Assembly: GCA_016699245.1 (NCBI GenBank)
Contig: CP064968.1
Location: forward strand, 379,331-443,330
Source: Candidatus Kaiserbacteria bacterium
GTDB taxonomy: Bacteria > Patescibacteriota > Minisyncoccia > Phycocordibacterales > UBA918
DNA: 64,000 nt
Reading direction: 5' to 3'
Shown piece by piece: positions 1-55,973 of this stretch (positions within the stretch are counted from its first letter, which is position 1; every line of letters begins with the position of its first letter). The notes under the pieces were generated by a model. That model was not told where the DNA came from and ran no database searches. It saw only the letters and a list, made by a program, of their open reading frames with translations. The translations under genes were made by a program, and so were the position numbers.

Positions 1-404
1 ATTCTAGTTCGTATCTCCCCTATCTTTTTTTCAGTAATAGCACCCGGCACTTCAAAAAATGCCTCATCGATTGAATACATTTCAATAGCACCACATTCTG
101 CTCTCAATGCACTCATCACTCGAGCAGAAATGTCTCGGTACAAATTGAAGTTTGATGAAAAAAGAGTAATCTTCTCTTTTTTGCATTGTTCCTTTATTTG
201 AAAAACTGGGACACCCATTGAAATGCCCATATCCTTTACTTCCTGCGAGCGCGCCACAATACAGCCGTCATTTGAAGACAGCACCGCCACCGGCTTCCCC
301 ACCAAATCCGGCCGAAAAAGCCGCTCACAAGAAACAAAAAAATTATTGCAATCCATCAACCCAAACATGCTACCCAGTATACCAAACCTCTATCACATCT
401 CATT

Positions 405-485
405 ATTGCCGACATCGTAAGTCGGCCAATCTAATCACAAGCGCGAGCAATATGTGCACATGGCCGACTTACGATGTCGGCAATA
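405..485. repeat. REP pair: two inverted copies of a REP hairpin (gccgac-N7-gtcggc, loop ttacgat/atcgtaa) upstream of the RAYT gene
   Basis: ttgccgacatcgtaagtcggcc at 408-427 and its reverse complement ggccgacttacgatgtcggcaa at 462-483; same unit recurs at 644, 1178, 1228, 8316 and 8349. Confidence 0.75.
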
Positions 486-504
486 TTTGATATTGTTAAT
501 TAAT

Positions 505-1170
505 ATGGATCTCTATCATGCTCTCAATAGAGGTGTCGATAAAAGGATTATTTTTCTTGATACTCAAGATTATGCGCGTTTTGTGCATGATATGTACGAG
601 TTCAATTCAACTCTCCCTGCAAATCACACTCGTTACAGCCAAATTGCCGACTTACGATGTCGGCAATTAGACGAAAGGCTTGTTCAGATTCATGGGTGGT
701 GTCTTATGCCTAATCACTATCACCTGCTCTTGAGTGAGTGCATAGAAGGTGGTATTTCACTATTTCTTCGAAAACTTAACGTGGGATACGCAAAATATTT
801 TAATGAACGATATAATCGTATCGGGACTTTATTCCAAGGCCGCACAAAAAAGATTTTAATTGACTCAGATGCTCATTTTCTTCATATTCTTAATTACATT
901 CATTTCAATCCACTCGACATGCAGGAAGGCACATCTGATTGGAGAATGAAAAAAATAGATAATGTCGATGCTGCAATAACGTATCTAAAATCATATCGCT
1001 GGAGTAGTTACCTCGACTACTGGGGTATTAAAAACTTCCCTTCGATTCTCACCACCTCATTATTCCAAGGTGTTTTCAATAATAACTACACGAGCCATGC
1101 AGAAAAATATCTTCGCAGTATATCCTTAGAAACAGATATTCAATCAATCAGACACCTTACATTTGAATAA
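505..1170 (+). CDS. REP-associated tyrosine transposase (RAYT; IS200/TnpA-like HUH enzyme)
   Basis: HUH motif LMPNHYHLLL. IS200-like C-terminal block NRIGTLFQGR...YIHFNP. Flanked on both sides by REP hairpin pairs. ATG at 505 chosen because the upstream part of the ORF is only the translation of a REP. Confidence 0.75.
   Translation: MDLYHALNRGVDKRIIFLDTQDYARFVHDMYEFNSTLPANHTRYSQIADLRCRQLDERLVQIHGWCLMPNHYHLLLSECIEGGISLFLRKLNVGYAKYFNERYNRIGTLFQGRTKKILIDSDAHFLHILNYIHFNPLDMQEGTSDWRMKKIDNVDAAITYLKSYRWSSYLDYWGIKNFPSILTTSLFQGVFNNNYTSHAEKYLRSISLETDIQSIRHLTFE
644..666. repeat. REP copy embedded in-frame inside the RAYT coding sequence
   Basis: ttgccgacttacgatgtcggcaa is translated as IADLRCRQ within the ORF. 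Same hairpin as the extragenic REPs. Confidence 0.6.
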
Positions 1171-1177
1171 AATTGTA

Positions 1178-1252
1178 TGGTCGACTTACGATGTCGACCA
1201 TACAAAAGCAATGAATAAATAGTAACTATGGTCGACATCGTAAGTCGACCAT
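1178..1252. repeat. REP pair (variant gtcgac-N7-gtcgac stems) downstream of RAYT
   Basis: tggtcgacttacgatgtcgacca at 1178-1200 and atggtcgacatcgtaagtcgaccat at 1228-1252 in inverted orientation. Confidence 0.7.
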
Positions 1253-1721: not shown

Positions 1722-2932
1722 TACACTATTGTAACACCCGTGAGGAGAGTATGTACTTCAAAGAGAAGTGCCATAACAGCAATAAGTCCGCTGGCATAGA
1801 CAATTTGGATTGGGTTTTGGCGACGCCACTCAATCACGATAGAAAGCATAAGTGCCAGAAACACAATGAGCGCAAGTGCGCCATACACCACCTGAAGCCA
1901 TTCACTGGGCTGGGTCATAAACTTTTCAAACAAAGAAGGGCTACTTGTATCAACTGAAGAAGGTGTATTGGGGTCGATGGTTGCCGGTACACCCTCACGT
2001 GAAGTAGTGGCAAGGTCGGTATACATCACCGTAGTACCATCATACGTGTATGAGGCAATCGTGGTGGAAGTACTCTCTTCCGCTTCAGTAATGGTGGTAG
2101 ATGCTTCAGGAGTAGTGTTTTCCATTACCAAAGTGCTCGATGCAGGGATTGCTGCCACCTCAATAGGCTGCGTTGCGGGCACCACCTTTATAGGAGGCGT
2201 GTTGGACGTTTCACCAAGAATATCAGTTTTAGGTGCTGGTGCTGGTGTCGGTGAAATGGCCTGTGCCACCACAGGCGGTGGAGCCACCACAGCGCTTGGC
2301 GTGCCAAAGAGTTGCACTACGAAAACTGTAGGCTCTCCCTCATAGGTACCTTTTGCAGTACCCACACCAATCTCATTGAAATTACCGTTCATAATATTGG
2401 CACGATGTGTCGGCGAATTCATCCATGCATCTACCACATCAGAAGAGTCAGTAAAATGCACTGCAAGATTTTCTCCCGCATGAATGAAATTGTATGACAC
2501 TTTATCAAACCAAAACCAAGGAGAGACTCCTGTGGGACTATAGTGTGCAAAATACCCATTCTTTGCCATGTCCTGCGCTTTGAGTTCTGCAGCGGCATCC
2601 AGTACATCACTGCGTGAAAGTCGTGAAAGAGAGTCTCCGCCACGTTCTTCATTAGTCAGATCAACTATCACTGCAGGAAGAATAGTAGAGACCATCCAGT
2701 CAGAACCAATCCAGACGAGCGCCTGAATATTTGCAATCGCAAACGAAAGAAGCACGAGCACAAGCATGATGCCCATCGATGCACGCTCAAGAAAGTCTGG
2801 CTTAAAATCATTTTTCTCATGCGGAATGAAATAATTTTTGAGATAGTCTTTTAACATTAATTTTATTATTTGCTCTTCACAGGTAAATATAACAAATTCC
2901 CTTCTCGAGCGTATATACTGTATTATAAGCAA
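1721..2932 (-). CDS. CAP (SCP/PR-1) domain-containing membrane protein with Thr/Pro-rich linker
   Basis: GYFAHYSPTG...HAGENLA...VDAWMNSPTHRANIM..NFNEIGVG is the CAP domain signature. N- and C-terminal hydrophobic segments present; start codon uncertain. Confidence 0.55.
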   Translation of the reverse strand: MLIIQYIRSRREFVIFTCEEQIIKLMLKDYLKNYFIPHEKNDFKPDFLERASMGIMLVLVLLSFAIANIQALVWIGSDWMVSTILPAVIVDLTNEERGGDSLSRLSRSDVLDAAAELKAQDMAKNGYFAHYSPTGVSPWFWFDKVSYNFIHAGENLAVHFTDSSDVVDAWMNSPTHRANIMNGNFNEIGVGTAKGTYEGEPTVFVVQLFGTPSAVVAPPPVVAQAISPTPAPAPKTDILGETSNTPPIKVVPATQPIEVAAIPASSTLVMENTTPEASTTITEAEESTSTTIASYTYDGTTVMYTDLATTSREGVPATIDPNTPSSVDTSSPSLFEKFMTQPSEWLQVVYGALALIVFLALMLSIVIEWRRQNPIQIVYASGLIAVMALLFEVHTLLTGVTIV

Positions 2933-2993
2933 ACCTTTTCGGGAGTGCTTTTGTATTAGCAGTGTTTTTTAGTTTTAACATAATAATTTTCTC

Positions 2994-3407
2994 ATGATGA
3001 AATATATTTATACAGCAATGATTACGCTTCTCCTTGTGGGAGCAGTCGTAGTACCCGGTGCGCAGGCAGCCACCACGTCAAACGAAGCGATGCTTGAACA
3101 AATCAAGGTACTCATGGCAAAGGTAGAGGAATTGCAAAAACAACTCTCTACTATCCGTGGCGAAGTAAAAAGTCTTATAAAAGATGGCCTCGAAGAGGGA
3201 ATGACTGACACAGACATCACAAAACTCCAAGAACTCCTTGCAACAGATCCAACAATTTACCCAGAGGGAAGGAAGACTGGCTATTTTGGCCCACTCACAA
3301 AGGAGGCTGTAATGCGTTTCCAAACACGTCATGGCCTTGAGGTCACTGGAAAAGTGAACGGTGAGACACGCGATATGCTTGAAGAGTATCTCCGTGAGGG
3401 GATTTAA
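2994..3407 (+). CDS. secreted coiled-coil protein with C-terminal peptidoglycan-binding domain (PG_binding_1-like)
   Basis: Signal peptide MMKYIYTAMITLLLVGAVVVPGAQA; TGYFGPLTKEAVMRFQTRHGLEVTGKVNGETRDML resembles a PG-binding repeat. Confidence 0.55.
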   Translation: MMKYIYTAMITLLLVGAVVVPGAQAATTSNEAMLEQIKVLMAKVEELQKQLSTIRGEVKSLIKDGLEEGMTDTDITKLQELLATDPTIYPEGRKTGYFGPLTKEAVMRFQTRHGLEVTGKVNGETRDMLEEYLREGI

Positions 3408-4773: not shown

Positions 4774-6037
4774 TTATCTATTATCTATTATTTTGCACAC
4801 GCTATTCCCTGCCACAAATCCTGTTGTCCAACAAAGTTGGAGTGAGAATCCCCCTGAAGGGCGTGATACATCGAGCATATCGCCAACCAGGTACACGCTC
4901 GGATGCTTTTTAGATTGCATCGTACGTGTGTCTATCTCGCGCAAATCAACGCCACCATCAGAAACAATCGCCCAATCAAGTCCTTTAGTACCCGTGATGG
5001 TAAGCGGCATAGCCTTCATGCGCTCTATAAGCGCGTGACGCACCTCCCGGGTGACGCTGTGAGACTTTTGTACCTTTTGCTCTTCTGGAAACATCTCAAG
5101 CACTGCCTCAACAATTGCTTTTGACATCAGTTCGCTAAGTGCGTTTTCCAAAGTTTTATTAGAATGAGCTTGAAGAAGCGTAGTAACGCGTGTACGCAAT
5201 GCACCCACATCTTCATGTGGAAAAAGATCGATAGTTGCCATCACAGGACCAGTCGCAAGAAGCACCTTCACTTCCCGCGCAGTATTCAAAATAAGAGGTC
5301 CCGAAACACCAAAGTGCGTACAGAGTATGTTGCCTTCACGACGCACTTTTCTTGTACCAGAACGAAAAGTAATGGAGACATCGGTAAGTGTCGTGCCCGA
5401 AAGTTCCTTTATCCACGTTTCCTTCGCTACAAGTGGTACGAGATCTGGATTAGGTACTGCCACCGTGTGTCCGAGAGTCTCGAGCCACGGCATAGCATCG
5501 CCCGTAGAACCCGTCTCGGGACGTGAGGTGCCACCACTTGCAATAATGTATGACTGTGCAGAAAGTATGCCATTATCGGTAAGTACACCCACGACAACAC
5601 CCTCACGCATGTGTATTGAGCGCACAGGAGTCTCTGTGCGTATCTCTACACCCACTTCACGTACATACGCTTCCATCACTCGTGTCACATCACTCGCTTT
5701 CTCCGTATGAGGGAATGCGCGCTTTCTGTCTTCCACAATAAAGGGCAATCCACGTTTCAGGAAAAAGTCCACAGTATCCTGTGCTCCAAATTGTGAAAAT
5801 GGTGAAAAGAGGAAGGGTGCCGCATCGCCGTAGTGCGTGAGGAGCGTGCGAATATCAAACTCTACATTAGCAATATTGCAGCGACCACCGCCCGTGATTG
5901 AGAGTTTATTGCCCACCGTCGCATTCTTTCTAAAAGAAGCACACGAAAACCACGTGATGCAGCTTTCCCTGCCGCCATCATACCCGCAGGCCCTGCGCCC
6001 ACCACAATCACGTCCCATGTGTCATTGTTTGACATAA
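4774..6037 (-). pseudogene. NAD(P)/FAD-dependent oxidoreductase of the HI0933/YhiN (aminoacetone oxidase-like) family, frameshifted near 5934-5937
   Basis: N-terminus MSNNDTWDVIVVGAGPAGMMAAGKAASRGFRVLLLE from ATG at 6037 is in one frame. The rest (KNATVGNKLSITGGGRCNIAN...) is in another. A single missing A in ttagaaaga versus expected ttagaaaaga would restore VLLLEKNATVG. Confidence 0.7.
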
Positions 6038-8310: not shown

Positions 8311-8372
8311 ATTATTGCCGACATCGTAAGTCGGCAATAAATATAAACGGCCGACTTACGATGTCGGCCGTT
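8311..8372. repeat. REP pair, same family as those flanking the RAYT gene
   Basis: cattattgccgacatcgtaagtcggcaa at 8311-8338 (identical to 401-427, flank included) and ggccgacttacgatgtcggccg at 8349-8370. Confidence 0.75.
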
Positions 8373-10546: not shown

Positions 10547-10617
10547 TGGGGTATCGTCTAATGGTAGGACATCAGGTTTTGGTCCTGAGTATCGAGGTTC
10601 GAGTCCTTGTACCCCAG
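10547..10617 (+). tRNA. tRNA-Gln (anticodon TTG)
   Basis: tggggtatcg...anticodon loop ttTTGgt...T-arm cgaggttcgagtccttg...acceptor tacccca + discriminator g. 5' end identical in pattern to E. coli tRNA-Gln (UGGGGUAUCG). Confidence 0.85.
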
Positions 10618-11143
10618 CTTGTTAACAAAAAGTCCCGCAAGGGATTTTTTGTGTTACAAGCTGGAGGTAAGCACAGTGTGGGACACTGTGCGTCAAGGAC
10701 TCGAAAACCTTCTCGTGATATTATTCGAGTGAAGCGAAGAATAATATCCGAAAGGTGTACTGAATTCGTAGAATTCGAGTCCTTGTACCCCAGCTTGTTA
10801 ACAAAAAGTCCCGCAAGGGATTTTTTGTGTTACAAGCTGGAGGTAAGCACAGTGTGGGACACTGTGCGTCAAGGACTCGAAAACCTTCTCGTGATATTAT
10901 TCGAGTGAAGCGAAGAATAATATCCGAAAGGTGTACTGAATTCGTAGAATTCGAGTCCTTGTACCCCAGCTTGTTAACAAAAAGTCCCGCAAGGGATTTT
11001 TTGTGTTACAAGCTGGAGGTAAGCACAGTGTGGGACACTGTGCGTCAAGGACGAGAAGACCTTGCCTGCTATTTTGTGACGTAAGGAAACAAAATAGCGA
11101 CAAGGTGTACTGAAGTCGTAAACTTCGAGTCCTTATACCCAAC
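10598..11143 (+). repeat. tandem array of 176 bp units (three copies, third diverged), each beginning with the last 20 nt of tRNA-Gln (ttcgagtccttgtaccccag)
   Basis: Copies of the tRNA 3' end at 10598, 10774, 10950 and degenerate at 11124. Units 1 and 2 are near-identical. Unit 3 replaces the inner hairpin with a different but equally perfect hairpin. Each unit has a terminator-like hairpin aaaaagtcccgcaagggatttttt and a segment caaggactcgaa complementary to the tRNA T-arm. Confidence 0.85.
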
Positions 11144-11176: not shown

Positions 11177-11503
11177 TTGTATATGGCATCACTCAACACA
11201 CACCGAAGCGGTAGTGTTCGAAGTATCATTTTTCGAGAGAAAGATGAGTGGTTTGGTGTTGCTCTCGAATTTAACATTGTTGAGGTAGGAGATTCACCAG
11301 AGGAGGTGATGATGCTTCTTGATGAGGCAATAAAAGGGTACGTTGAGTCAGCCCAAAAGGCGAAACTTTCTGTTCGGACTTTAAATCAAAAATCTGATCC
11401 TGTATATGAAAAACTGTGGGAGTCTCAGTCAAAACCACACAGAAAAACAGGAAAGCAAATTTATCGAGTCTCCTCTCAACCAATTTCCGCACTTGTTTCA
11501 TAA
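11177..11503 (+). CDS. hicB: HicB-family antitoxin (type II TA)
   Basis: SIIFREKDEWFGVALEFNIVEVGDSPEEVMMLLDEAIKGYVES matches the HicB N-terminal (UPF0150-like) fold. Immediately precedes the hicA-like gene. Confidence 0.6.
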   Translation: MYMASLNTHRSGSVRSIIFREKDEWFGVALEFNIVEVGDSPEEVMMLLDEAIKGYVESAQKAKLSVRTLNQKSDPVYEKLWESQSKPHRKTGKQIYRVSSQPISALVS

Positions 11504-46216: not shown

Positions 46217-46295
46217 GGTGGATATTGTATCATATTGATTATTTCCATCACTGTGTATAATTTGATACACTCATTGGGCACCTATTAGGGCACAT

Positions 46296-46352
46296 GCCGG
46301 GATGGCGGAATTGGTATACGCGCACGACTCAAAATCGTGTATCGCAAGGCTG
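46296..46352 (+). other. partial tRNA-Leu-like 5' fragment (acceptor 5' strand, D-arm, anticodon arm CAA, start of variable arm) with no matching 3' half
   Basis: gccgggatggcggaattggtatacgcgcacgactcaaaatcgtgtatcgcaaggct is about 80% identical to the 5' part of the intact tRNA-Leu 230 bp downstream. Its acceptor stem differs (gccggga vs gctggag), so it is not a split/intron-containing gene. Confidence 0.6.
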
Positions 46353-46378
46353 AAATAATTTGGGAAATTATTTCAGGA

Positions 46379-46497
46379 GGTTGTAAGCAAAGCTTTCTGA
46401 CTGCTCGCGCTCGAAAATAGAAATAATTTTCTATTTTGCTCGCTTGTTTGTCAGTCGATAGTTTCGACTAAAAGGAGAAAGTATCATACAACCTGAA
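46379..46497 (+). repeat. structured element shared with the tRNA-Tyr locus (ggttgtaagcaaagctttctga...tcagtcgatagttt...tcatacaacctgaac)
   Basis: Outer stem ggttgta/tacaacc and mid stem ctgac/gtcag. Inner 10 bp hairpin differs in sequence from the 55661-55786 copy but is perfect in both (compensatory changes). Confidence 0.65.
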
Positions 46498-46582
46498 CCG
46501 CGCCTGTGAGGCGTTCAGAGAACGATAAGGCGGGAGGGTTAACACCTCTATCATAGAAAATTACAAATTTCAGAAATAGTGT

Positions 46583-46663
46583 GCTGGAGTGGTGGAATGG
46601 TATACACGTGCGACTCAAAATCGCATGCCGCAAGGCTTGAGGGTTCAAGTCCCTCCTCCAGCA
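46583..46663 (+). tRNA. tRNA-Leu (anticodon CAA)
   Basis: Acceptor gctggag/ctccagc, anticodon stem tgcga/tcgca with loop ctCAAaa, long variable arm, T-arm gagggttcaagtccctc. Confidence 0.85.
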
Positions 46664-46692
46664 CAGTGTTTCGGAAATCTCTTTATTAAAAC

Positions 46693-51699: not shown

Positions 51700-52530
51700 T
51701 TTACATGGACCTATTCTCTGTAAATGCTCGTTTTGCGGTCACGAGTTGCTAATTATTTTAGTTCGCTTCGCTTCTAAAATAATAAGCACCTTCATAAATT
51801 CTTTTATGTAAAAGAATTTATGAAGGGCTCAGAAAATATAATCGCTACGCTTATTATTTTCTGGCCACCCCAGCTCGCTGTTCATCACTTTTTGAAAGTG
51901 ACTCACAACGCTCGTGAAATAGTTTCCCAAACTATTTCACCCCGTCGAGCACGTACGTGACGCAGGTCACCTCTTTGCGGTCACGATAAAATTATCTCCC
52001 AGAAAATTTTATCTAAGTCTTTTCAAAGAAAAGTCTAAGCACTCTCGACCCCGACTCACTCGCCTAGCGGCATCGTTCCGTCTCCCGCAAAGGACCGCAA
52101 GCAAAGCAGTTTGCTTGCTACACAAAAGAACAGACACTTTCGTGTCTGTTCTTTTGTGTTCCTTTGCGGGCCCACGAGGGCTCGAAACTTACAGTTTCAG
52201 TACCCCTTTAGGATACTTTTCTTCATTTCATTCGAAAAGATATCTCTAAAGGGCTTCAAATCCTGATCGCACAGTGCCCCGCACTGTGCTTGGGCCCGCC
52301 CAGATATACAAAAAGCTGTCTTATGACAGCTTTTTGTATATCTGGGCGGGCCCACGAGGATTTGAACATTACATGTTCAGTACCCGTTGTGGCTATTTTA
52401 TTTCTTCGCTCTGCGAATCATAAAATAGCACGCAACGGCTTCGAGCCCGTGCTCCTGTTTGCATTCGCAAACAGATGCGCTTCGTGGGCCCGCCATATTA
52501 AAACACCTCATCAAATGAGGTGTTTTAATA
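51700..52530. repeat. non-coding hairpin array: series of perfect 8-30 bp-arm palindromes, including three units carrying copies of the tRNA-Trp 3' end (gcgggcccacgagg...) in both orientations
   Basis: Perfect palindromes at about 51793-51830, 51886-51910, 52105-52160, 52293-52356 (arms include tgggcccgcc) and 52484-52544 (arms = tRNA-Trp 3' end plus terminator). Direct copies of the tRNA 3' segment at 52166-52186 and 52346-52366. Confidence 0.8.
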
Positions 52531-52604
52531 TGGCGGGCCCACGAGGGCTCGAACCTCGGTCGCTGGTTTTGGAGACCAGAATTCTACCACTGAAATATAG
52601 GCCC
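52531..52604 (-). tRNA. tRNA-Trp (anticodon CCA), CCA end encoded
   Basis: gggcctatatttcagtggtagaattctggtctCCAaaaccagcgaccgaggttcgagccctcgtgggcccgcca. Confidence 0.85.
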
Positions 52605-53126: not shown

Positions 53127-54005
53127 TTAAATTTTATTTATGCTATAGATTCTTCCAGGTCCCGCTTTATAGGATGGGCTAAAACTTGAATCACTTACCC
53201 AAGAAAATGTTTTATTCGATGAACTGTTTGAAATTGTTTTTGTACATCCTGCATTCATGCAAATGCCCGTATGAGATCGTGAACCGTCAGTCACAATAAC
53301 AATATCCCCAGCTTTCGCAGCTGATTGATCAACCAATGTTCCCCTACCTCCTGCAAGTGCTTGCTCCATTGACTTCACACTATTACCATCAATGGGACTT
53401 ATGCCTGCATCTTCTAGTACTTTGTTTACAGCCCATGCGCATGCAAGTGAGCCACCACCAGGACCTCCTGCCGTTGAAAAACCTTGTGCCCCGAGTGCAG
53501 CAGCAGCAATTGATCCTGCACTTCCTCCACCCGGATTCGTCATACCACCCGGACCTGTATTTGTCGTAGCACCACCACTTGGTCCTGTCATCGTGGCGGT
53601 CATCGTTGGATTATCTACACACTGTACTGTACCCCACACCTCAATACCTTTGCCATCACTCATGACGGTCATAAGTATCGTGTTCACAATAAGCCATGCA
53701 CCGAGGAGGATGAAGAAACCTATGATAGAGTTCGACATCATTTCTTTTCCTTCTGAGACTTTTCCAGTGTTCCCTGCGGACATCACCATTTTCATGCCAC
53801 CAAAGGCGAACATGAGGGCAACGATAGTTGCAGATGCGCCTATAAACCAAGTCATCAATCCCTGCCCCATAGCAACAAAGTCACAGACGCGACACATTGG
53901 TTCGGGAGGACCACCACCACAGGGGACTAGGCCTGCAGCGTACGTGACAGAGGCGGTGAGAAGGAAGAGGCTTGTGATGAATAGTATGCGTTGGTTGGTG
54001 GTCAT
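53127..54005 (-). CDS. secreted two-TM pilin-like N-terminal module fused to a C-terminal CHAP/NlpC-P60-like cysteine peptidase/amidase domain
   Basis: Signal peptide plus two hydrophobic helices (VirB2/TrbC-like topology). C-terminus has nucleophile Cys in SLACAWAVN and downstream GDIVIV...SHTGIC His. N-terminal 160 aa about 97% identical to the 54605 paralog. Confidence 0.55.
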   Translation of the reverse strand: MTTNQRILFITSLFLLTASVTYAAGLVPCGGGPPEPMCRVCDFVAMGQGLMTWFIGASATIVALMFAFGGMKMVMSAGNTGKVSEGKEMMSNSIIGFFILLGAWLIVNTILMTVMSDGKGIEVWGTVQCVDNPTMTATMTGPSGGATTNTGPGGMTNPGGGSAGSIAAAALGAQGFSTAGGPGGGSLACAWAVNKVLEDAGISPIDGNSVKSMEQALAGGRGTLVDQSAAKAGDIVIVTDGSRSHTGICMNAGCTKTISNSSSNKTFSWVSDSSFSPSYKAGPGRIYSINKI

Positions 54006-54021
54006 AAAATAAAATTAGACA

Positions 54022-54597
54022 TTATAATGGAACACTACCCGGACAAAAACTAAATCGTAAATCCTGACTTGTGTAAAACTGATTAATAAAATACGGAACG
54101 CTCACCATATAGTCAATCTGGCACAACTGCTCCTCACTGAGTCCAAGATGGGTAAGCAAATATTGCTCAGCACCAGTGCGGGCTTTGCTTATTGGTTCTG
54201 AAGTAAGTGAAATATTGAAGTACTGTGTTTGTGCAACGTACATAATGGTAAAAGGAGGGTATGTTTCTACGAAAGAGCCATCAAGTGGAAAGTGTTCACC
54301 TAAGTGGTAATATCCCTCATTTTGAGGGTCTGCCACGGTGTCTGGGTCACTCATAAAATTACGCACCGAGAGAGTAGCACCCGATGTTGTATTGAGTGTG
54401 AGCAACGTATTACTACTACCCGTATTTGTAGAGGACGTGCCATCTGGATTTTGTGAGGCGTTTGTTCCGCTACTCGGAAACTCTGTTCCTTGATTTTCAG
54501 ACGGAGTATCCACTGCATTATTTGAAATGTAAAACCAAAAACCAAACCCCCCAAGGAGTAGTAATACAATGACGATAATGATGCTTTTATTATTCAT
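54022..54597 (-). CDS. membrane-anchored/secreted hypothetical protein
   Basis: N-terminal TM IIIVIVLLLLGGFGFWFYI then Ser/Thr/Asn-rich region; start chosen at MNNKSIII. Confidence 0.45.
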   Translation of the reverse strand: MNNKSIIIVIVLLLLGGFGFWFYISNNAVDTPSENQGTEFPSSGTNASQNPDGTSSTNTGSSNTLLTLNTTSGATLSVRNFMSDPDTVADPQNEGYYHLGEHFPLDGSFVETYPPFTIMYVAQTQYFNISLTSEPISKARTGAEQYLLTHLGLSEEQLCQIDYMVSVPYFINQFYTSQDLRFSFCPGSVPL

Positions 54598-54604
54598 ATA
54601 CAAT

Positions 54605-55441
54605 TTATGGTCCATACTTTGTAATACACGCTTGAGCTTTTGCATTACAATTGGCACAGGTCCAACTACTATATCCGCTCTGTGACACCAGCTTTTTTGC
54701 TACCTCAGCGTTGCACGATGCATTGGTACAAGACGAAAAACTACTGCAACTCGTGCCTTTTGCAGCACTTTCCCAAGTTGATTTAATGACTTGAAATGTG
54801 CCACATGCACTACCGCTTTTATTTTGCGCTGTAGGATTACCAGAACTCTCTGTCATCGCGATACACGACATGACATTTGCTTGTGAAGGAGTAAAGCCTG
54901 CGGCTGTAAGCGCATTCACACTGCACGCCGGATTAAGGCTCCCACACTGTATACCACTTCCTCCCCCCGGATTCGTCATACCACCCGGACCTGTATTTGT
55001 CGTAGCACCACCACTTGGCCCCGTCATCGTGGCGGTCATCGTAGGATTATCAACACACTGTACCGTACCCCACACCTCAACACCTTTACCATCACTCATG
55101 ACGGTCATAAGTATCGTATTCACAATAAGCCATGCACCGAGGAGGATGAAGAAACCTATGATAGAGTTCGACATCATTTCTTTTCCTTCTGAGACTTTTC
55201 CAGTGTTCCCTGCGGACATCACCATCTTCATACCCCCAAAGGCGAACATGAGGGCAACGATACTTGCAGACGCACCAATAAACCAAGTCATCAATCCCTG
55301 CCCCATAGCAACAAAGTCACAGACGCGACACATTGATTCGGGAGGACCACCACCACAGGGGACAAGCCCTGCAGCGTACGTGACAGAGGCGGTGAGAAGG
55401 AAGAGTGCTGTGGTGAATAGTATGCGGTGGTTGGTGGTCAT
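54605..55441 (-). CDS. paralog of 53127: same pilin-like N-terminal module fused to a C-terminal lytic-transglycosylase (SLT)-like domain
   Basis: CIAMTESSGNPTAQNKSGSACGTFQV resembles the SLT catalytic E-S...GLMQ block; several Cys pairs; N-terminal 160 aa near-identical to 53127 gene. Confidence 0.55.
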   Translation of the reverse strand: MTTNHRILFTTALFLLTASVTYAAGLVPCGGGPPESMCRVCDFVAMGQGLMTWFIGASASIVALMFAFGGMKMVMSAGNTGKVSEGKEMMSNSIIGFFILLGAWLIVNTILMTVMSDGKGVEVWGTVQCVDNPTMTATMTGPSGGATTNTGPGGMTNPGGGSGIQCGSLNPACSVNALTAAGFTPSQANVMSCIAMTESSGNPTAQNKSGSACGTFQVIKSTWESAAKGTSCSSFSSCTNASCNAEVAKKLVSQSGYSSWTCANCNAKAQACITKYGP

Positions 55442-55544
55442 GCTCCCTATATCGTACCATAGTACATTCAGGTACTTTTACTTATAAGTGAATTATGGTA
55501 CTTTAGAGCCTGTCCTCCTTACGGAGACAAATAATTACATATAT

Positions 55545-55561
55545 GCGTCGGTGGTGGAGTG
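55545..55561 (+). other. duplicate of the first 17-20 nt of tRNA-Tyr (atgcgtcggtggtggagtg) about 310 bp upstream of the intact gene
   Basis: Identical to 55854-55872 including 2 nt of 5' flank. Confidence 0.6.
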
Positions 55562-55660
55562 AGAAATGGGTGAGAAGCGAGTTTACGCAGCTTCGCAAGA
55601 CCTTGAGCAGTTTCTGCGAAAGGTGTACAGCAACTGTAAGTCGGGACCCATTTCGCAAGA

Positions 55661-55786
55661 GGTTGTAAGCAAAAGCTTTCTGATTGCACTCGTGTCATGT
55701 ATGAAAGTGAACTTTCATACTGTACACTCGTTTATCAGTCGATAGTTTACGAGTGAAGCGAGATAAACTATCATACAACCTGAACA
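55661..55786 (+). repeat. second copy of the structured element seen upstream of tRNA-Leu; contains the conserved-loop hairpin gatagtttacGAGTGAAGCGAGataaactatc
   Basis: Shares ggttgtaagcaaa(a)gctttctga..tcagtcgatagttt..tcatacaacctgaac with 46379-46497. Hairpin loop matches the loop of the tRNA-Gln repeat hairpin (ttattcGAGTGAAGCGAAGaataa). Confidence 0.65.
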
Positions 55787-55855
55787 GTCCCTGTAAAGGA
55801 GTCAATCACAACAGACTATTAAGTTATAGAGGTCTGAAAAGAACAATACAATCAT

Positions 55856-55938
55856 GCGTCGGTGGTGGAGTGGTCAATCACAACAGACTGTAAATCTGTC
55901 GACTTCGGTCTTCGCTGGTTCGAATCCAGCCCGGCGCA
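55856..55938 (+). tRNA. tRNA-Tyr (anticodon GTA) with long variable arm
   Basis: Acceptor gcgtcgg/ccggcgc (one G-U), anticodon stem acaga/tctgt with loop ctGTAaa, variable arm gacttcggtc, T-arm gctggttcgaatccagc. Confidence 0.85.
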
Positions 55939-55973
55939 CAAACCAAACATACATAACACGTAAGCGTTACGTA

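What the first reader, a model, noticed from the sequence alone, without database searches (positions are those of the whole stretch)
46296..46663. tRNA-Leu(CAA) preceded by a partial tRNA-Leu-like 5' half and a structured element shared with the tRNA-Tyr locus
At 46296-46352 there is a 57 nt segment with acceptor 5' strand, D-arm and a CAA anticodon arm, about 80% identical to the intact tRNA-Leu 230 bp downstream. It has no 3' half, and its acceptor stem differs, so it is not a split or intron-containing gene.
Between them lies an about 120 nt element also found upstream of tRNA-Tyr. Its outer stem (ggttgta/tacaacc) and mid stem (ctgac/gtcag versus ctgat/atcag, a compensatory pair change) are conserved. 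Its central 10 bp hairpin is entirely different in sequence but perfect in both copies.
A partial tRNA copy plus an element with covariation looks like an integration scar with a functional att or structured RNA part.
Basis: seen in the sequence. Interest (0 to 1): 0.65.

Follow-up and report, generated by a model that had tools for sequence, protein, structure and literature searches.

The report
Nested hairpin modules splitting tRNA genes
A dead copy of a leucine tRNA gene, split by a small folded non-coding insert, sits in front of a working replacement copy, and the insert belongs to a large family of nested hairpin modules, absent from Rfam, that pile up at tRNA genes in these tiny-genome (CPR) bacteria.

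Summary
The window comes from a Candidatus Kaiserbacteria (CPR) genome.

- **The fragment.** 46296-46352 is the 5' part (positions 1-57) of the locus's original tRNA-Leu(CAA). It sits behind the native promoter and matches the working tRNA-Leu of close relatives at 53-54 of 57 bases. It is split by a 174-nt insert. A weak T-arm remnant follows at 46527-46549, so a trace of the 3' half is probably left.
- **The shared element.** It is composite: a "class 1" scaffold (stems P1, P3, and P4 with a G-U-A loop) carrying a second module (P2) nested inside.
- **The family.** A covariance model built only from relatives finds 47 copies at E below 1e-4 in 907 kb. Pairing is 87% against 59% in shuffles, and 23 of 24 pairs change on both sides. 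36 of 47 copies lie within 400 nt of a tRNA gene.
- **Reach.** All four tRNA genes in the window carry such units, and so do 46 of 138 tRNA genes in related contigs.
- **Turnover.** Units come and go between otherwise identical strains, nest inside one another, and usually sit in the loop of a larger hairpin.
- **Known families.** No Rfam family matches. No integrase, TnpB or reverse transcriptase gene was found in the window.

The best reading is a family of non-autonomous insertion modules that target hairpin loops. The mobilising enzyme is unknown.

The parts
46252..46261 (+). Native tRNA-Leu promoter-like box TGTGTATAAT, now in front of the dead copy
   Evidence: The same TGTATAATTTGATACACTCA block lies about 31 nt upstream of the working tRNA-Leu in relative L017. 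Its function as a promoter is inferred.
46296..46352 (+). Pseudo-tRNA-Leu(CAA), positions 1-57: acceptor 5' strand, D arm, anticodon arm and most of the variable arm
   Evidence: It matches the working tRNA-Leu of close relatives at 53-54 of 57 bases, while the first 56 bases of the window's intact gene match them at only about 45 of 56.
46350..46376 (+). Hairpin module CTGAAATAATTTGGGAAATTATTTCAG with a TGGGA-type loop, overlapping the end of the fragment
   Evidence: The same kind of hairpin precedes class-1 scaffolds in L053, L028, L095 and L017.
46379..46513 (+). Class-1 scaffold. P1 is 46379-46385 with 46487-46493. P3 is 46457-46464 with 46478-46485. The linker TGAAC follows. P4 is 46501-46513, here with a GTG loop.
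   Evidence: With P2 removed it aligns to relatives' scaffolds at 55 of 65 (L028b) and 53 of 65 (L085), more than 10 sd above shuffles. The intact copy gets only a 13.9-bit partial hit from covariance model R1.
46386..46454 (+). P2 module nested in the scaffold: small AAGC/GCTT hairpin, stem CTGAC/GTCAG, and the apical 10-bp hairpin
   Evidence: The same module stands alone in the D loop of pseudo-tRNA-Trp in L017/L027, L045 and L051.
46527..46549 (+). Probable remainder of the pseudo-tRNA-Leu: AAGGC plus a degenerate T arm. AAGGC is repeated on both sides of the insert.
   Evidence: Weak local match to tRNA positions 50-63, plus direct reading of the sequence.
46583..46664 (+). Intact tRNA-Leu(CAA), a different allele type from the dead copy
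   Evidence: It is 82 of 82 identical to the tRNA-Leu of L037, whose ParB is only 54% identical to the window's. The flanks are unrelated.
55545..55561 (+). Pseudo-tRNA-Tyr positions 1-17, with 9 nt of duplicated upstream flank starting at 55536
55597..55646 (+). Miniature class-1 scaffold nested in the loop of hairpin GAAATGGG/ACCCATTTC (55564-55571 with 55646-55654)
   Evidence: R1 hit of 33.9 bits, E 1.5e-5. The flanking complement GAAATGGGT has P about 0.005.
55661..55802 (+). Class-1 scaffold of the Tyr locus with nested P2 (55668-55738), then P3, P1 3' strand and P4 (AGTCCCTGTAAAGGAGT)
   Evidence: R1 gives a 22.3-bit partial hit. With P2 removed it is 57 of 60 identical to the orthologous element of L017.
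55801..55817 (+). Pseudo-tRNA-Tyr positions 18-34, which resume directly after the insert
55856..55939 (+). Intact tRNA-Tyr(GTA)
10619..11143 (+). Three tandem units downstream of tRNA-Gln. Each has a terminator hairpin, an inverted copy of the tRNA 3' end, a class-1 scaffold, and tRNA positions 54 to the 3' end. The first two units are 100% identical.
   Evidence: R1 hits of 69-71 bits.
51950..52530 (-). Two class-1 units and one class-2 unit downstream of tRNA-Trp, each ending in a tRNA-Trp 3' piece
   Evidence: R1 hits of 78.8 and 71.1 bits.

Best explanation
**What it is.** The region is a tRNA-Leu locus hit by small, non-coding, hairpin-rich insertion modules. 46296-46352 plus 46527-46549 is the locus's original tRNA-Leu gene, now dead. 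A 174-nt composite insert splits it in the variable-arm region. The insert is a TGGGA-loop hairpin plus a class-1 scaffold, which itself carries a nested P2 module. A second, intact tRNA-Leu of a different allele type lies 33 nt further on and does the work. The tRNA-Tyr locus has the same build, with its insert in the D loop.

**The family.** The modules are abundant in Kaiserbacteria and related Paceibacteria. They lie almost always beside tRNA genes and on the tRNA strand. They come in at least three scaffold classes.

**How it works: shown.**
- Units are gained or lost between otherwise identical strains.
- Units are duplicated in tandem.
- Units are nested in each other.
- The same composite sits at two different tRNA loci in this genome.
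- More than half of the copies sit between perfectly complementary flanks, that is, in the loop of a larger hairpin such as a tRNA arm, a terminator or another module.

**How it works: inferred.**
- The modules are non-autonomous DNA elements, moved in trans by an enzyme that works on folded single-stranded DNA and inserts into hairpin loops.
- Insertion in an essential tRNA gene survives only because an intact tRNA, or the displaced tRNA part, comes with the element or is duplicated with it.
- Homologous recombination between the repeated tRNA pieces then amplifies or deletes units.
- The native promoter now stands before the dead copy. The whole 310-nt stretch is therefore probably transcribed as a long 5' leader of pre-tRNA-Leu and removed by RNase P.
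For: **Orthology of the dead copy.**
- The conserved ParB-promoter-tRNA-Leu arrangement in L017 and L013-16 has no upstream copy.
- The fragment matches relatives' working genes at 53-54 of 57. The intact gene's 5' part matches at about 45 of 56.

**A real family.**
- Alignment A4 holds 26 copies from relatives. 87% of cells pair against 59% in shuffles. 23 of 24 pairs change on both sides. Slid controls give 36-48%.
- Model R1 finds 54 hits in 907 kb, against one weak hit in 167 kb of unrelated loci.
- With P2 removed, the Leu and Tyr elements align at 55 of 65 and 57 of 60 to relatives' scaffolds.

**Link to tRNA genes.**
- 36 of 47 hits lie within 400 nt of a tRNA gene, where 12% of the sequence lies. 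34 of those 36 are on the tRNA strand.
- 46 of 138 tRNA genes have an exact partial duplicate of at least 12 nt within 600 nt.
- All four tRNA genes of the window have one.

**Turnover.**
- L061 and L067 are identical across about 110 flanking columns but differ by a clean 154-nt unit. L063 has the unit in tandem.
- The first two Gln units are 100% identical.

**Nesting and hairpin loops.**
- P2 sits inside class 1. A mini-scaffold sits inside a hairpin loop. In L037 a tRNA sits inside the P3 loop of a scaffold that sits in a pseudo-tRNA T loop.
- 23 of 42 copies have perfect flanking complements of at least 8 nt, against a null mean of 5.4.
- Two copies lie inside terminator-like hairpins away from any tRNA.

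**A DNA-level flavour.** Of 593 paired cells, 497 are Watson-Crick, 19 are G.U and 13 are A.C.
Against: - No mobilising enzyme is identified. About 50 ORFs of the window show no integrase, TnpB/IscB or reverse transcriptase.
- The one transposase-like gene is a RAYT-type Y1 enzyme. It has its own, different REP hairpins.
- No terminal inverted repeats or regular target duplications define element ends, so the ends are not sharply defined.
- The strict same-strand orientation with tRNA genes, and the likely co-transcription, would also fit a functional RNA.
- Loss of units by recombination between repeats is as compatible with the indel data as gain.
- The identity of the intact tRNA-Leu to that of L037 stops at the tRNA borders, so transfer together with the element is not shown.
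- The intact Leu element gets only a weak partial hit from the family model (13.9 bits). Its membership rests on removing P2 by hand.
Confidence: 0.55

Rival explanations
1. **Functional structured RNA.** The scaffold is a cis-acting part of the pre-tRNA leader or trailer, or a small RNA made with the tRNA. It would act in processing, stability or regulation of tRNA expression in these reduced genomes.
For: - Covariation is strong in three stems.
- 34 of 36 tRNA-adjacent copies are on the tRNA strand.
- The native promoter stands upstream of the dead copy, so the element is probably transcribed.
- A few positions are invariant: A-C-N-G in the linker and the G-U-A loop.
Against: - Copy number varies between identical strains, and tandem copies are 100% identical.
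- Close relatives lack it at the same tRNA.
- Only 3% of pairs are G.U, and A.C is nearly as frequent.
- Copies sit in dead tRNA copies, behind terminators, and in non-tRNA terminator loops.
- No Rfam family matches.
Confidence: 0.17
2. **Guide-RNA-like unit.** Each scaffold is followed by 12-24 nt identical to the neighbouring tRNA, as in TnpB omega RNAs or the homing guide of type V-K CRISPR transposons. The RNA would direct a trans-encoded nuclease or recombinase to tRNA genes.
For: - Every class-1 and class-2 scaffold is followed directly by a tRNA-sense piece, whatever the tRNA.
- The junction position depends on scaffold class. Class 1 joins mostly at position 54, class 2 at position 57 or at the 3' end.
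Against: - No nuclease gene lies next to any copy or anywhere in the window.
- The tRNA piece has no fixed length. It simply continues as the rest of a dead tRNA (L017 Tyr, L028, L037).
- The guide would match the intact tRNA next door, which means self-targeting.
- Rfam's IS605-orfB and HEARO models give no hit.
Confidence: 0.06
3. **Folded single-strand recombination site.** The downstream units are tiny cassettes that a tRNA-specific tyrosine recombinase inserts at the tRNA T loop. It would recognise a folded single-stranded hairpin made of the tRNA 3' piece and its inverted copy. This is how CTX phage uses XerCD at dif, and how integron cassettes use attC.
For: - Units are built as S-T-A-C. 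S is the tRNA 3' piece, T the terminator hairpin, A the inverted copy of S including CCA or the trailer, and C the scaffold.
- A co-varies with the S in front of it even when S has drifted from the tRNA (window Trp unit 2).
- Arrays show the most diverged unit farthest from the tRNA.
- Gene-sized cargo lies between units in L056.
Against: - No recombinase was found.
- The upstream (Leu/Tyr) type has no inverted copy.
- Palindrome growth by template switching could make the same inverted copies.
Confidence: 0.1
4. **Passive by-product.** Tandem tRNA duplicates decay, and hairpins grow and shuffle through replication template switching and unequal recombination. There would be no dedicated mobility and no function.
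For: - Stems are perfect and almost purely Watson-Crick.
- Apical hairpins are perfect but unrelated in sequence.
- Indels are bounded by direct repeats.
Against: - Homologous scaffolds with conserved unpaired bases occur at different tRNA types, in different genera, and at non-tRNA sites.
- The same P2-in-class-1 composite sits at both Leu and Tyr, while the orthologous Tyr element of L017 lacks P2 and its Leu site lacks the element.
Confidence: 0.1

Closest known systems
Integrase-borne integrative elements at tRNA genes (prophages, genomic islands, tycheposons, and their gene-less cis-mobilisable remnants)
   Same: The element is flanked by a direct repeat of part of the tRNA. An intact tRNA is kept. 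Tandem arrays build up at the same tRNA. Cargo genes are sometimes present (L056).
   Different: The units are 0.1-0.3 kb with no integrase. They have a conserved folded core. Insertions also occur on the 5' side, in D, variable and T loops, in terminator loops and inside other units. Downstream units carry an inverted copy of the tRNA piece.
REP/REPIN elements with RAYT transposases, and hairpin-only derivatives of IS200/IS605 (PATEs)
   Same: They are small, non-coding, hairpin-based and multi-copy, and would be moved in trans on single-stranded DNA. A RAYT-like gene with flanking REPs is present in the window (505-1170).
   Different: That gene's REPs (GCCGAC-ATCGTAA-GTCGGC) are unrelated to the tRNA modules and are not at tRNA genes. 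REPINs are not known, to my knowledge, to split tRNA genes or to carry tRNA pieces.
Intervening sequences (IVS) in hairpin loops of bacterial 23S rRNA
   Same: They are extra stem-loops of 100-200 nt, sporadically present, sitting in the loop of an existing helix and closed by complementary flanks.
   Different: IVS lie in a working rRNA and are cut out by RNase III. Here the host tRNA copy is dead and a second copy works. No rRNA gene lies in the window, so a shared origin could not be tested.
[quoted passage not shown]
   Same: Same phylum. Both are structured insertions in tRNA loops.
   Different: No group I core is detectable (no Rfam hit at E up to 10). The flanking tRNA halves do not make a complete tRNA. 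The reported introns sit at 35/36 in the anticodon loop and self-splice.
TnpB omega RNA and the type V-K CRISPR-transposon homing guide for tRNA genes
   Same: A folded scaffold is followed by a stretch identical to the adjacent tRNA gene.
   Different: No associated protein gene is present. The tRNA stretch is of variable length and continues as a dead tRNA. No Rfam match to the known scaffolds.

Membership tests
Functional tRNA gene (for 46296-46352) | Complete cloverleaf with a paired acceptor stem, detected by ARAGORN, with an Rfam tRNA score of at least 29 bits | tested here: not met
   ARAGORN does not call it. Rfam gives 21.7 bits, below 29. No acceptor 3' strand is present.
Group I intron in a tRNA gene | Group I catalytic core (Rfam RF00028) | tested here: not met
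   No hit at E up to 10 in either locus.
Group I intron in a tRNA gene | Two exons that join into a complete tRNA | tested here: not met
   The Leu copy lacks its acceptor 3' strand. The Tyr copy stops at position 34.
Integrase-type integrative element at a tRNA gene | Direct repeat of part of the tRNA on both sides of the element, with an intact tRNA retained | tested here: met
Integrase-type integrative element at a tRNA gene | Integrase gene within or beside the element | tested here: not met
   The 174-nt and 238-nt inserts hold no gene. No recombinase family was found in about 50 ORFs of the window.
MITE | Terminal inverted repeats shared by all copies, plus a fixed-length target-site duplication | tested here: inconclusive
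   Flanking complements are common (23 of 42), but they are host hairpin arms that differ from site to site. A 5-nt AAGGC repeat flanks the Leu insert. No common termini are seen.
REP/REPIN of the window's RAYT-like gene | The same hairpin sequence as the REPs that flank the RAYT gene | tested here: not met
   The seven REP copies lie at 408-1249 and 8317-8368 only. None is at a tRNA locus, and the sequence is unrelated.
TnpB/IscB omega RNA | Adjacent tnpB or iscB gene and a match to known scaffold models | tested here: not met
   No such gene. No Rfam hit.
TnpB/IscB omega RNA | Scaffold followed by a guide of fixed length that matches flanking DNA | tested here: inconclusive
   A tRNA-identical stretch always follows the scaffold, but its length runs from 12 to over 24 nt and it continues as a dead tRNA.
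rRNA-type intervening sequence | Insertion in the loop of an existing helix, closed by complementary flanks | tested here: met
   23 of 42 copies have perfect flanking complements of at least 8 nt, against a null mean of 5.4.
rRNA-type intervening sequence | Excision from the transcript by RNase III, leaving a working host RNA | not testable with these tools
   Needs transcript mapping.
Class-1 tRNA-associated scaffold (family defined here, model R1) | P1 enclosing P3, then linker (G/A)UAC(N)G or UGAAC, then a 5-6 bp P4 with a G-U-A loop | tested here: met
   Both elements show all parts by eye. With P2 removed they align to relatives' scaffolds at 55 of 65 and 57 of 60. The intact copies get only partial R1 hits because of the nested P2: Tyr 22.3 bits, Leu 13.9 bits. 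The Leu copy has GUG instead of GUA in the loop.

The most novel reading that the evidence does not exclude
The modules would be a self-propagating system specialised on tRNA genes. A folded single strand, or its RNA, carrying a copy of the tRNA piece and its inverted partner, directs insertion into the conserved T or D loop of the matching tRNA gene. The same event delivers a replacement tRNA or tRNA part, so that resident tRNA genes are overwritten allele by allele. The enzyme would be a new or repurposed recombinase or HUH nuclease encoded elsewhere in the genome. This would be a new kind of mobile element that spreads by replacing an essential gene with its own copy.
Probability: 0.15. Interest if true: 0.85.

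Novelty: new variant of a known kind. Interest (0 to 1): 0.62.

Why it matters
- **Genome economy.** These bacteria have genomes of about 1 Mb and are thought to shed everything dispensable. Even so, a third of the sampled tRNA genes carry stacks of these modules.
- **A new class of small element.** If the modules move by landing in hairpin loops and bringing or duplicating a tRNA copy, they are a compact and previously overlooked class of mobile DNA. They would also be a route for turnover and horizontal replacement of tRNA genes.
- **Annotation.** tRNA fragments and long structured leaders will mislead tRNA and ncRNA callers in CPR genomes. The partial tRNA repeats also mimic prophage att sites.
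- **Origin of inserts in other RNAs.** The family offers a tractable case for asking how extra helices arise in the loops of structured RNAs, as with rRNA intervening sequences.

Tried and rejected
- **Phage origin.** A megablast of 5 kb around the locus against phage records gave nothing. Gene content (topoisomerase I, RelA/SpoT, ParB, MiaA, RecQ, type IV pilin-like genes) and a 100% ParB match place the window in a Kaiserbacteria genome.
- **Pattern scans of viral contigs.** One gave no hit. The other gave nine chance hits, all without tRNA genes; the two inspected lie in apparently protein-coding sequence.
- **Source contig.** Exact look-up of the window's ParB returned "not on record", so the rest of the 1.05-Mb source genome could not be surveyed.
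- **Small protein in the Tyr element.** There is a 59-aa ORF at 55566-55745. An indel shifts the frame in the Leu copy, so I rejected a coding role.
- **Hammerhead, K-turn or box C/D, T-box, retroviral-type primer-binding site, retron.**
  - I considered these from motifs seen by eye, such as CUGA, tandem GA, and TGG-starting complements of the tRNA 3' end.
  - I dropped them because the core motifs are absent and Rfam gives no hit.
  - In the Gln units the complement also extends into the 3' trailer rather than CCA.
- **RAYT as the mobilising enzyme.** Its REPs are a separate family, so the link is left open, not adopted.
- **Literature.** Five searches found group I introns in Patescibacteria tRNA genes (PMC13011429) but no description of these modules. 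A paper on gene exchange in Patescibacteria does not mention tRNA.
- **Transfer of the Leu cassette from an L037-like donor.** The identity ends at the tRNA borders.
Full report
**Where the window comes from.** The genes around the finding are topoisomerase I, RelA/SpoT, ParB, MiaA, RecQ and type IV pilin-like proteins. The ParB protein is 100% identical to one annotated in a Candidatus Kaiserbacteria genome on a 1.05-Mb contig. This is a small-genome CPR bacterium, not a phage. A megablast of the locus against phage records finds nothing.

**Checking the observation.** ARAGORN and Rfam call four tRNA genes:

| tRNA | Coordinates | Strand |
|---|---|---|
| Gln | 10547-10618 | + |
| Leu(CAA) | 46583-46664 | + |
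| Trp | 52531-52604 | - |
| Tyr | 55856-55939 | + |

- The segment 46296-46352 is indeed the 5' part of a tRNA-Leu. A 40-nt block is 83% identical to the intact gene 286 nt downstream, and a local alignment covers tRNA positions 4-55.
- It is not a working tRNA. It scores 21.7 bits against Rfam's 29-bit threshold.
- The element shared with the tRNA-Tyr locus is real. Three blocks of 14-17 nt are identical in the two copies and occur nowhere else in the window.

I add two corrections.
1. After the insert the dead tRNA-Leu appears to resume with AAGGC and a degenerate T arm at 46527-46549. This is a weak match.
2. The Tyr locus has its own tRNA-Tyr pieces. Positions 1-17, with 9 nt of upstream flank, lie at 55536-55561. 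Positions 18-34 lie at 55801-55817, immediately either side of a 238-nt insert.

**The dead copy is the original gene.**
- In the relative L017 (ParB 75% identical) the same ParB-promoter-tRNA-Leu-terminator arrangement holds a single tRNA-Leu, with no upstream copy and no insert. The same is true of L013-L016.
- The promoter-like box TGTGTATAAT and the bases after it are conserved. In the window they stand before the dead copy (46252-46261), not before the intact gene.
- The 57-nt fragment matches the working tRNA-Leu(CAA) genes of close relatives at 53-54 of 57 positions. The 5' part of the window's intact gene matches them at only about 45 of 56.
- The intact gene is a different allele type. 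It is 82 of 82 identical to the tRNA-Leu of L037, whose ParB is only 54% identical to the window's, but the similarity stops at the tRNA borders.
- I conclude that the resident gene was split and a second tRNA-Leu took over. Where that second copy came from is not settled.

**The element belongs to a much larger family.** All four tRNA genes in the window have partial copies of themselves nearby.
- Downstream of tRNA-Gln lie three tandem 176-nt units, the first two 100% identical.
- Downstream of tRNA-Trp lie two units of about 180 nt and a third of another kind.
- Each downstream unit reads, in order:
  1. tRNA positions 54 to the 3' end;
  2. a terminator hairpin;
  3. an inverted copy of that tRNA piece, interrupted by a small hairpin;
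  4. a folded scaffold;
  5. the tRNA piece again.
- The scaffold in these units has the same build as the Leu/Tyr element. Stem P1 encloses hairpin P3, which has a purine-rich loop. A short linker follows, (G/A)UAC(N)G or UGAAC. Then comes a 5-6 bp hairpin P4 with a G-U-A loop.

**Comparative data.** I fetched 80 syntenic contigs from metagenomes using an alignment of ParB relatives.
- In these contigs plus six loci fetched earlier and the window, 46 of 138 tRNA genes have an exact partial duplicate of at least 12 nt within 600 nt. About one would be expected by chance (my estimate). 32 are downstream, 10 upstream and 4 on both sides.
- I built an alignment of 26 scaffolds taken only from relatives. 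It gives 87% paired cells against 59% in column shuffles. 23 of 24 pairs change on both sides. Partners slid by 1-3 columns give 36-48%.
- The covariance model R1 built from it finds 54 hits in 907 kb, 47 of them at E below 1e-4. It finds one weak hit in 167 kb of unrelated loci.
- In the window R1 recovers the three Gln units, the two Trp units and a miniature scaffold at 55597-55646. It also recovers the P3-P4 part of the Tyr element.
- The Leu element gets only a 13.9-bit partial hit, because a 69-nt module (P2) interrupts it.
- With P2 removed, the Leu and Tyr elements align to relatives' scaffolds at 55 of 65 and 57 of 60 identical positions, more than ten standard deviations above shuffles.
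- The Tyr element is the ortholog of one in L017 that lacks P2.

**The shared 120-nt element is therefore composite.** P2 contains the mid stem and the apical hairpin that is perfect but different in the two copies. It is a separate module.
- In L017/L027, L045 and L051 it stands alone in the D loop of a dead tRNA-Trp copy.
- Its apical hairpin keeps pairing through changes on both sides in 9 of 12 pairs across five copies.
- A second scaffold class ("class 2"..GCCGGAG..CGAGGCGGGGTCG..hairpin..GTGACC) fills the same slot in many downstream units, including one after the Trp units in the window.

**Where the modules sit.**
- 36 of 47 model hits lie within 400 nt of a tRNA gene, where only 12% of the sequence lies. 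34 of those 36 are on the tRNA strand.
- 23 of 42 copies are flanked by perfectly complementary stretches of at least 8 nt, against a null mean of 5.4. They occupy the loop of a larger hairpin. That hairpin can be a tRNA T arm or D arm, the tRNA 3' piece and its inverted copy, a terminator, or another module.
- Two copies, in L095 and L067, lie inside terminator-like hairpins far from any tRNA or other Rfam RNA.
- Nesting is common. P2 sits in class 1. The mini-scaffold at 55597-55646 sits in the loop of hairpin GAAATGGG/ACCCATTTC.
- In L037 an intact tRNA-Leu sits in the P3 loop of a scaffold, and its leader and trailer extend the acceptor stem by 8 bp. That scaffold sits in the T loop of a dead tRNA-Leu whose 3' end follows.
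- In L028 a single dead tRNA-Leu carries three separate inserts.

**Turnover.**
- L061 and L067 are identical over about 110 flanking columns downstream of tRNA-Leu. They differ by one clean 154-nt unit bounded by a 12-nt repeat. L063 has the unit in tandem.
- The window holds the same P2-in-class-1 composite at two different tRNA loci, Leu and Tyr. The orthologous Tyr element of L017 has no P2, and L017's Leu site has no such element upstream on the tRNA strand.
- These facts show gain, loss and copying between loci. They do not show the mechanism.

**RNA or DNA?**
- The stems are almost pure Watson-Crick. Of 593 cells, 497 are Watson-Crick, 19 are G.U and 13 are A.C. A structure selected in RNA usually shows many more G.U than A.C exceptions.
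- This pattern, the perfect but unrelated apical hairpins, and the G-N-A loops on short G-C-closed stems all point towards DNA hairpins or very young copies. The bearing of G-N-A loops on DNA hairpins is from my own knowledge.
- On the other hand, the same-strand rule and the position behind the native promoter mean the Leu element is very likely transcribed as part of a roughly 310-nt leader of pre-tRNA-Leu. That is inference.
- No Rfam family matches, even at E up to 10.

**Who moves them?** Pfam scans of about 50 ORFs of the window find no integrase, TnpB/IscB or reverse transcriptase.
- The only transposase-like gene is at 505-1170. It is a Y1 (IS200-like) protein that scores best as a REP-associated tyrosine transposase. 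Pfam gives 26.8 bits, above its cut-off. NCBIfam gives 38 bits, below its cut-off.
- Over 4000 relatives at E up to 1e-10 are on record. The named ones among the best 120 are Kaiserbacteria, Uhrbacteria, Parcubacteria and Paceibacterota.
- It is flanked by its own REP hairpins, GCCGAC-ATCGTAA-GTCGGC. There are seven copies in the window, none at a tRNA locus.
- It shows that single-strand hairpin transposition chemistry exists in this genome. Nothing ties it to the tRNA modules.

**Most likely explanation.**
- *What is there.* The finding is the original tRNA-Leu gene, split by a composite member of a family of non-autonomous hairpin modules, with a replacement tRNA-Leu next to it.
- *How I think it works.* The modules insert into loops of DNA hairpins through a trans-acting enzyme. 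An insertion in a tRNA gene survives because a whole tRNA (L037) or the displaced tRNA part (the downstream units) comes with the module or is duplicated with it. Recombination between the repeated tRNA pieces then expands and contracts the arrays.
- *What is shown and what is inferred.* The orthology of the dead copy, the family, the tRNA association, the hairpin-loop position, the nesting and the turnover are shown. The single-strand mechanism, the enzyme and the delivery of the tRNA are inferred.
- *Rivals.* They are a functional leader or trailer RNA, a guide-RNA-like unit, an attC/CTX-like folded recombination site, and a passive product of palindrome growth. Each is listed with its evidence in the Rival explanations section.

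**Comparison with known systems.**
- The partial tRNA repeats and arrays resemble integrase-borne elements at tRNA genes. The size, the absence of an integrase and the loop targeting do not.
- The hairpin nature resembles REPINs and IS200/IS605 miniatures, but the window's REPs are a different family.
- The position in hairpin loops resembles rRNA intervening sequences.
- Group I introns, which are common in tRNA genes of this phylum (PMC13011429), are excluded by the lack of a core and of complete exons.
- I found no description of these modules in the searchable literature. That does not prove there is none.

Noticed in passing
window 403-1252 and 8317-8368: A RAYT-like Y1 transposase gene (505-1170) is flanked by inverted REP hairpins GCCGAC/GTCGAC-ATCGTAA-GTCGGC/GTCGAC, with one REP inside the gene. 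A REP doublet lies at 8317-8368. Over 4000 relatives of the protein at E up to 1e-10 are on record. The named ones are Kaiserbacteria, Uhrbacteria, Parcubacteria and Paceibacterota.
   Followed up: partly
window 10619-11143: Three tandem 176-nt units lie downstream of tRNA-Gln, each ending in tRNA-Gln positions 52-72. The first two are 100% identical. The third is 73% identical and carries a decayed tRNA piece.
   Followed up: yes
window 51950-52530 (- strand): Two class-1 units and one class-2 unit lie downstream of tRNA-Trp. The inverted copy in unit 2 matches the drifted tRNA piece of unit 1 (TTCAAATCC / GGATTTGAA), not the tRNA itself.
   Followed up: partly
window 11186-11400: The ORF just after the tRNA-Gln array (MASLNTHRSGSVRSIIFREKDEWFGVALEFNIVEV...) looks to me like a HicB-type antitoxin. 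A HicA toxin gene lies near tRNA-Leu in L017.
   Followed up: no
L037 2300-2600 (- strand): An intact tRNA-Leu, identical to the window's, is nested in the P3 loop of a class-1 scaffold. That scaffold sits in the T loop of a dead tRNA-Leu. Leader and trailer extend the acceptor stem by 8 bp.
   Followed up: partly
L056 2100-3650: An ORF with motifs I read as NYN (LabA-like) nuclease (2363-3052; no family search run) lies between class-1 units of the tRNA-Trp array, on the opposite strand. The arrays can therefore hold gene-sized cargo.
   Followed up: no
L013-L016, about 5144-5725: A free-standing LAGLIDADG homing endonuclease gene lies directly downstream of tRNA-Leu in relatives that lack the modules at this tRNA.
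   Followed up: no
L008 60-445 (Thermotaleaceae, Firmicutes; a chance hit of the pattern scan): Two 147-nt tandem units, each starting with tRNA-Phe positions 1-27 and its promoter-proximal flank, lie upstream of an intact tRNA-Phe. This has the same layout as the upstream type here, but outside CPR and with an unrelated spacer.
   Followed up: no
L017 5925-5974 (+ strand): A miniature class-1 scaffold (34 bits) lies in the ParB-tRNA-Leu spacer on the ParB strand, opposite to the tRNA. It is one of only two tRNA-adjacent copies in the opposite orientation.
   Followed up: no
window 53127-55441: Two adjacent genes combine a type IV secretion pilin-like N-terminal domain with a cell-wall hydrolase domain (CHAP, or lysozyme-like SLT).
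   Followed up: no
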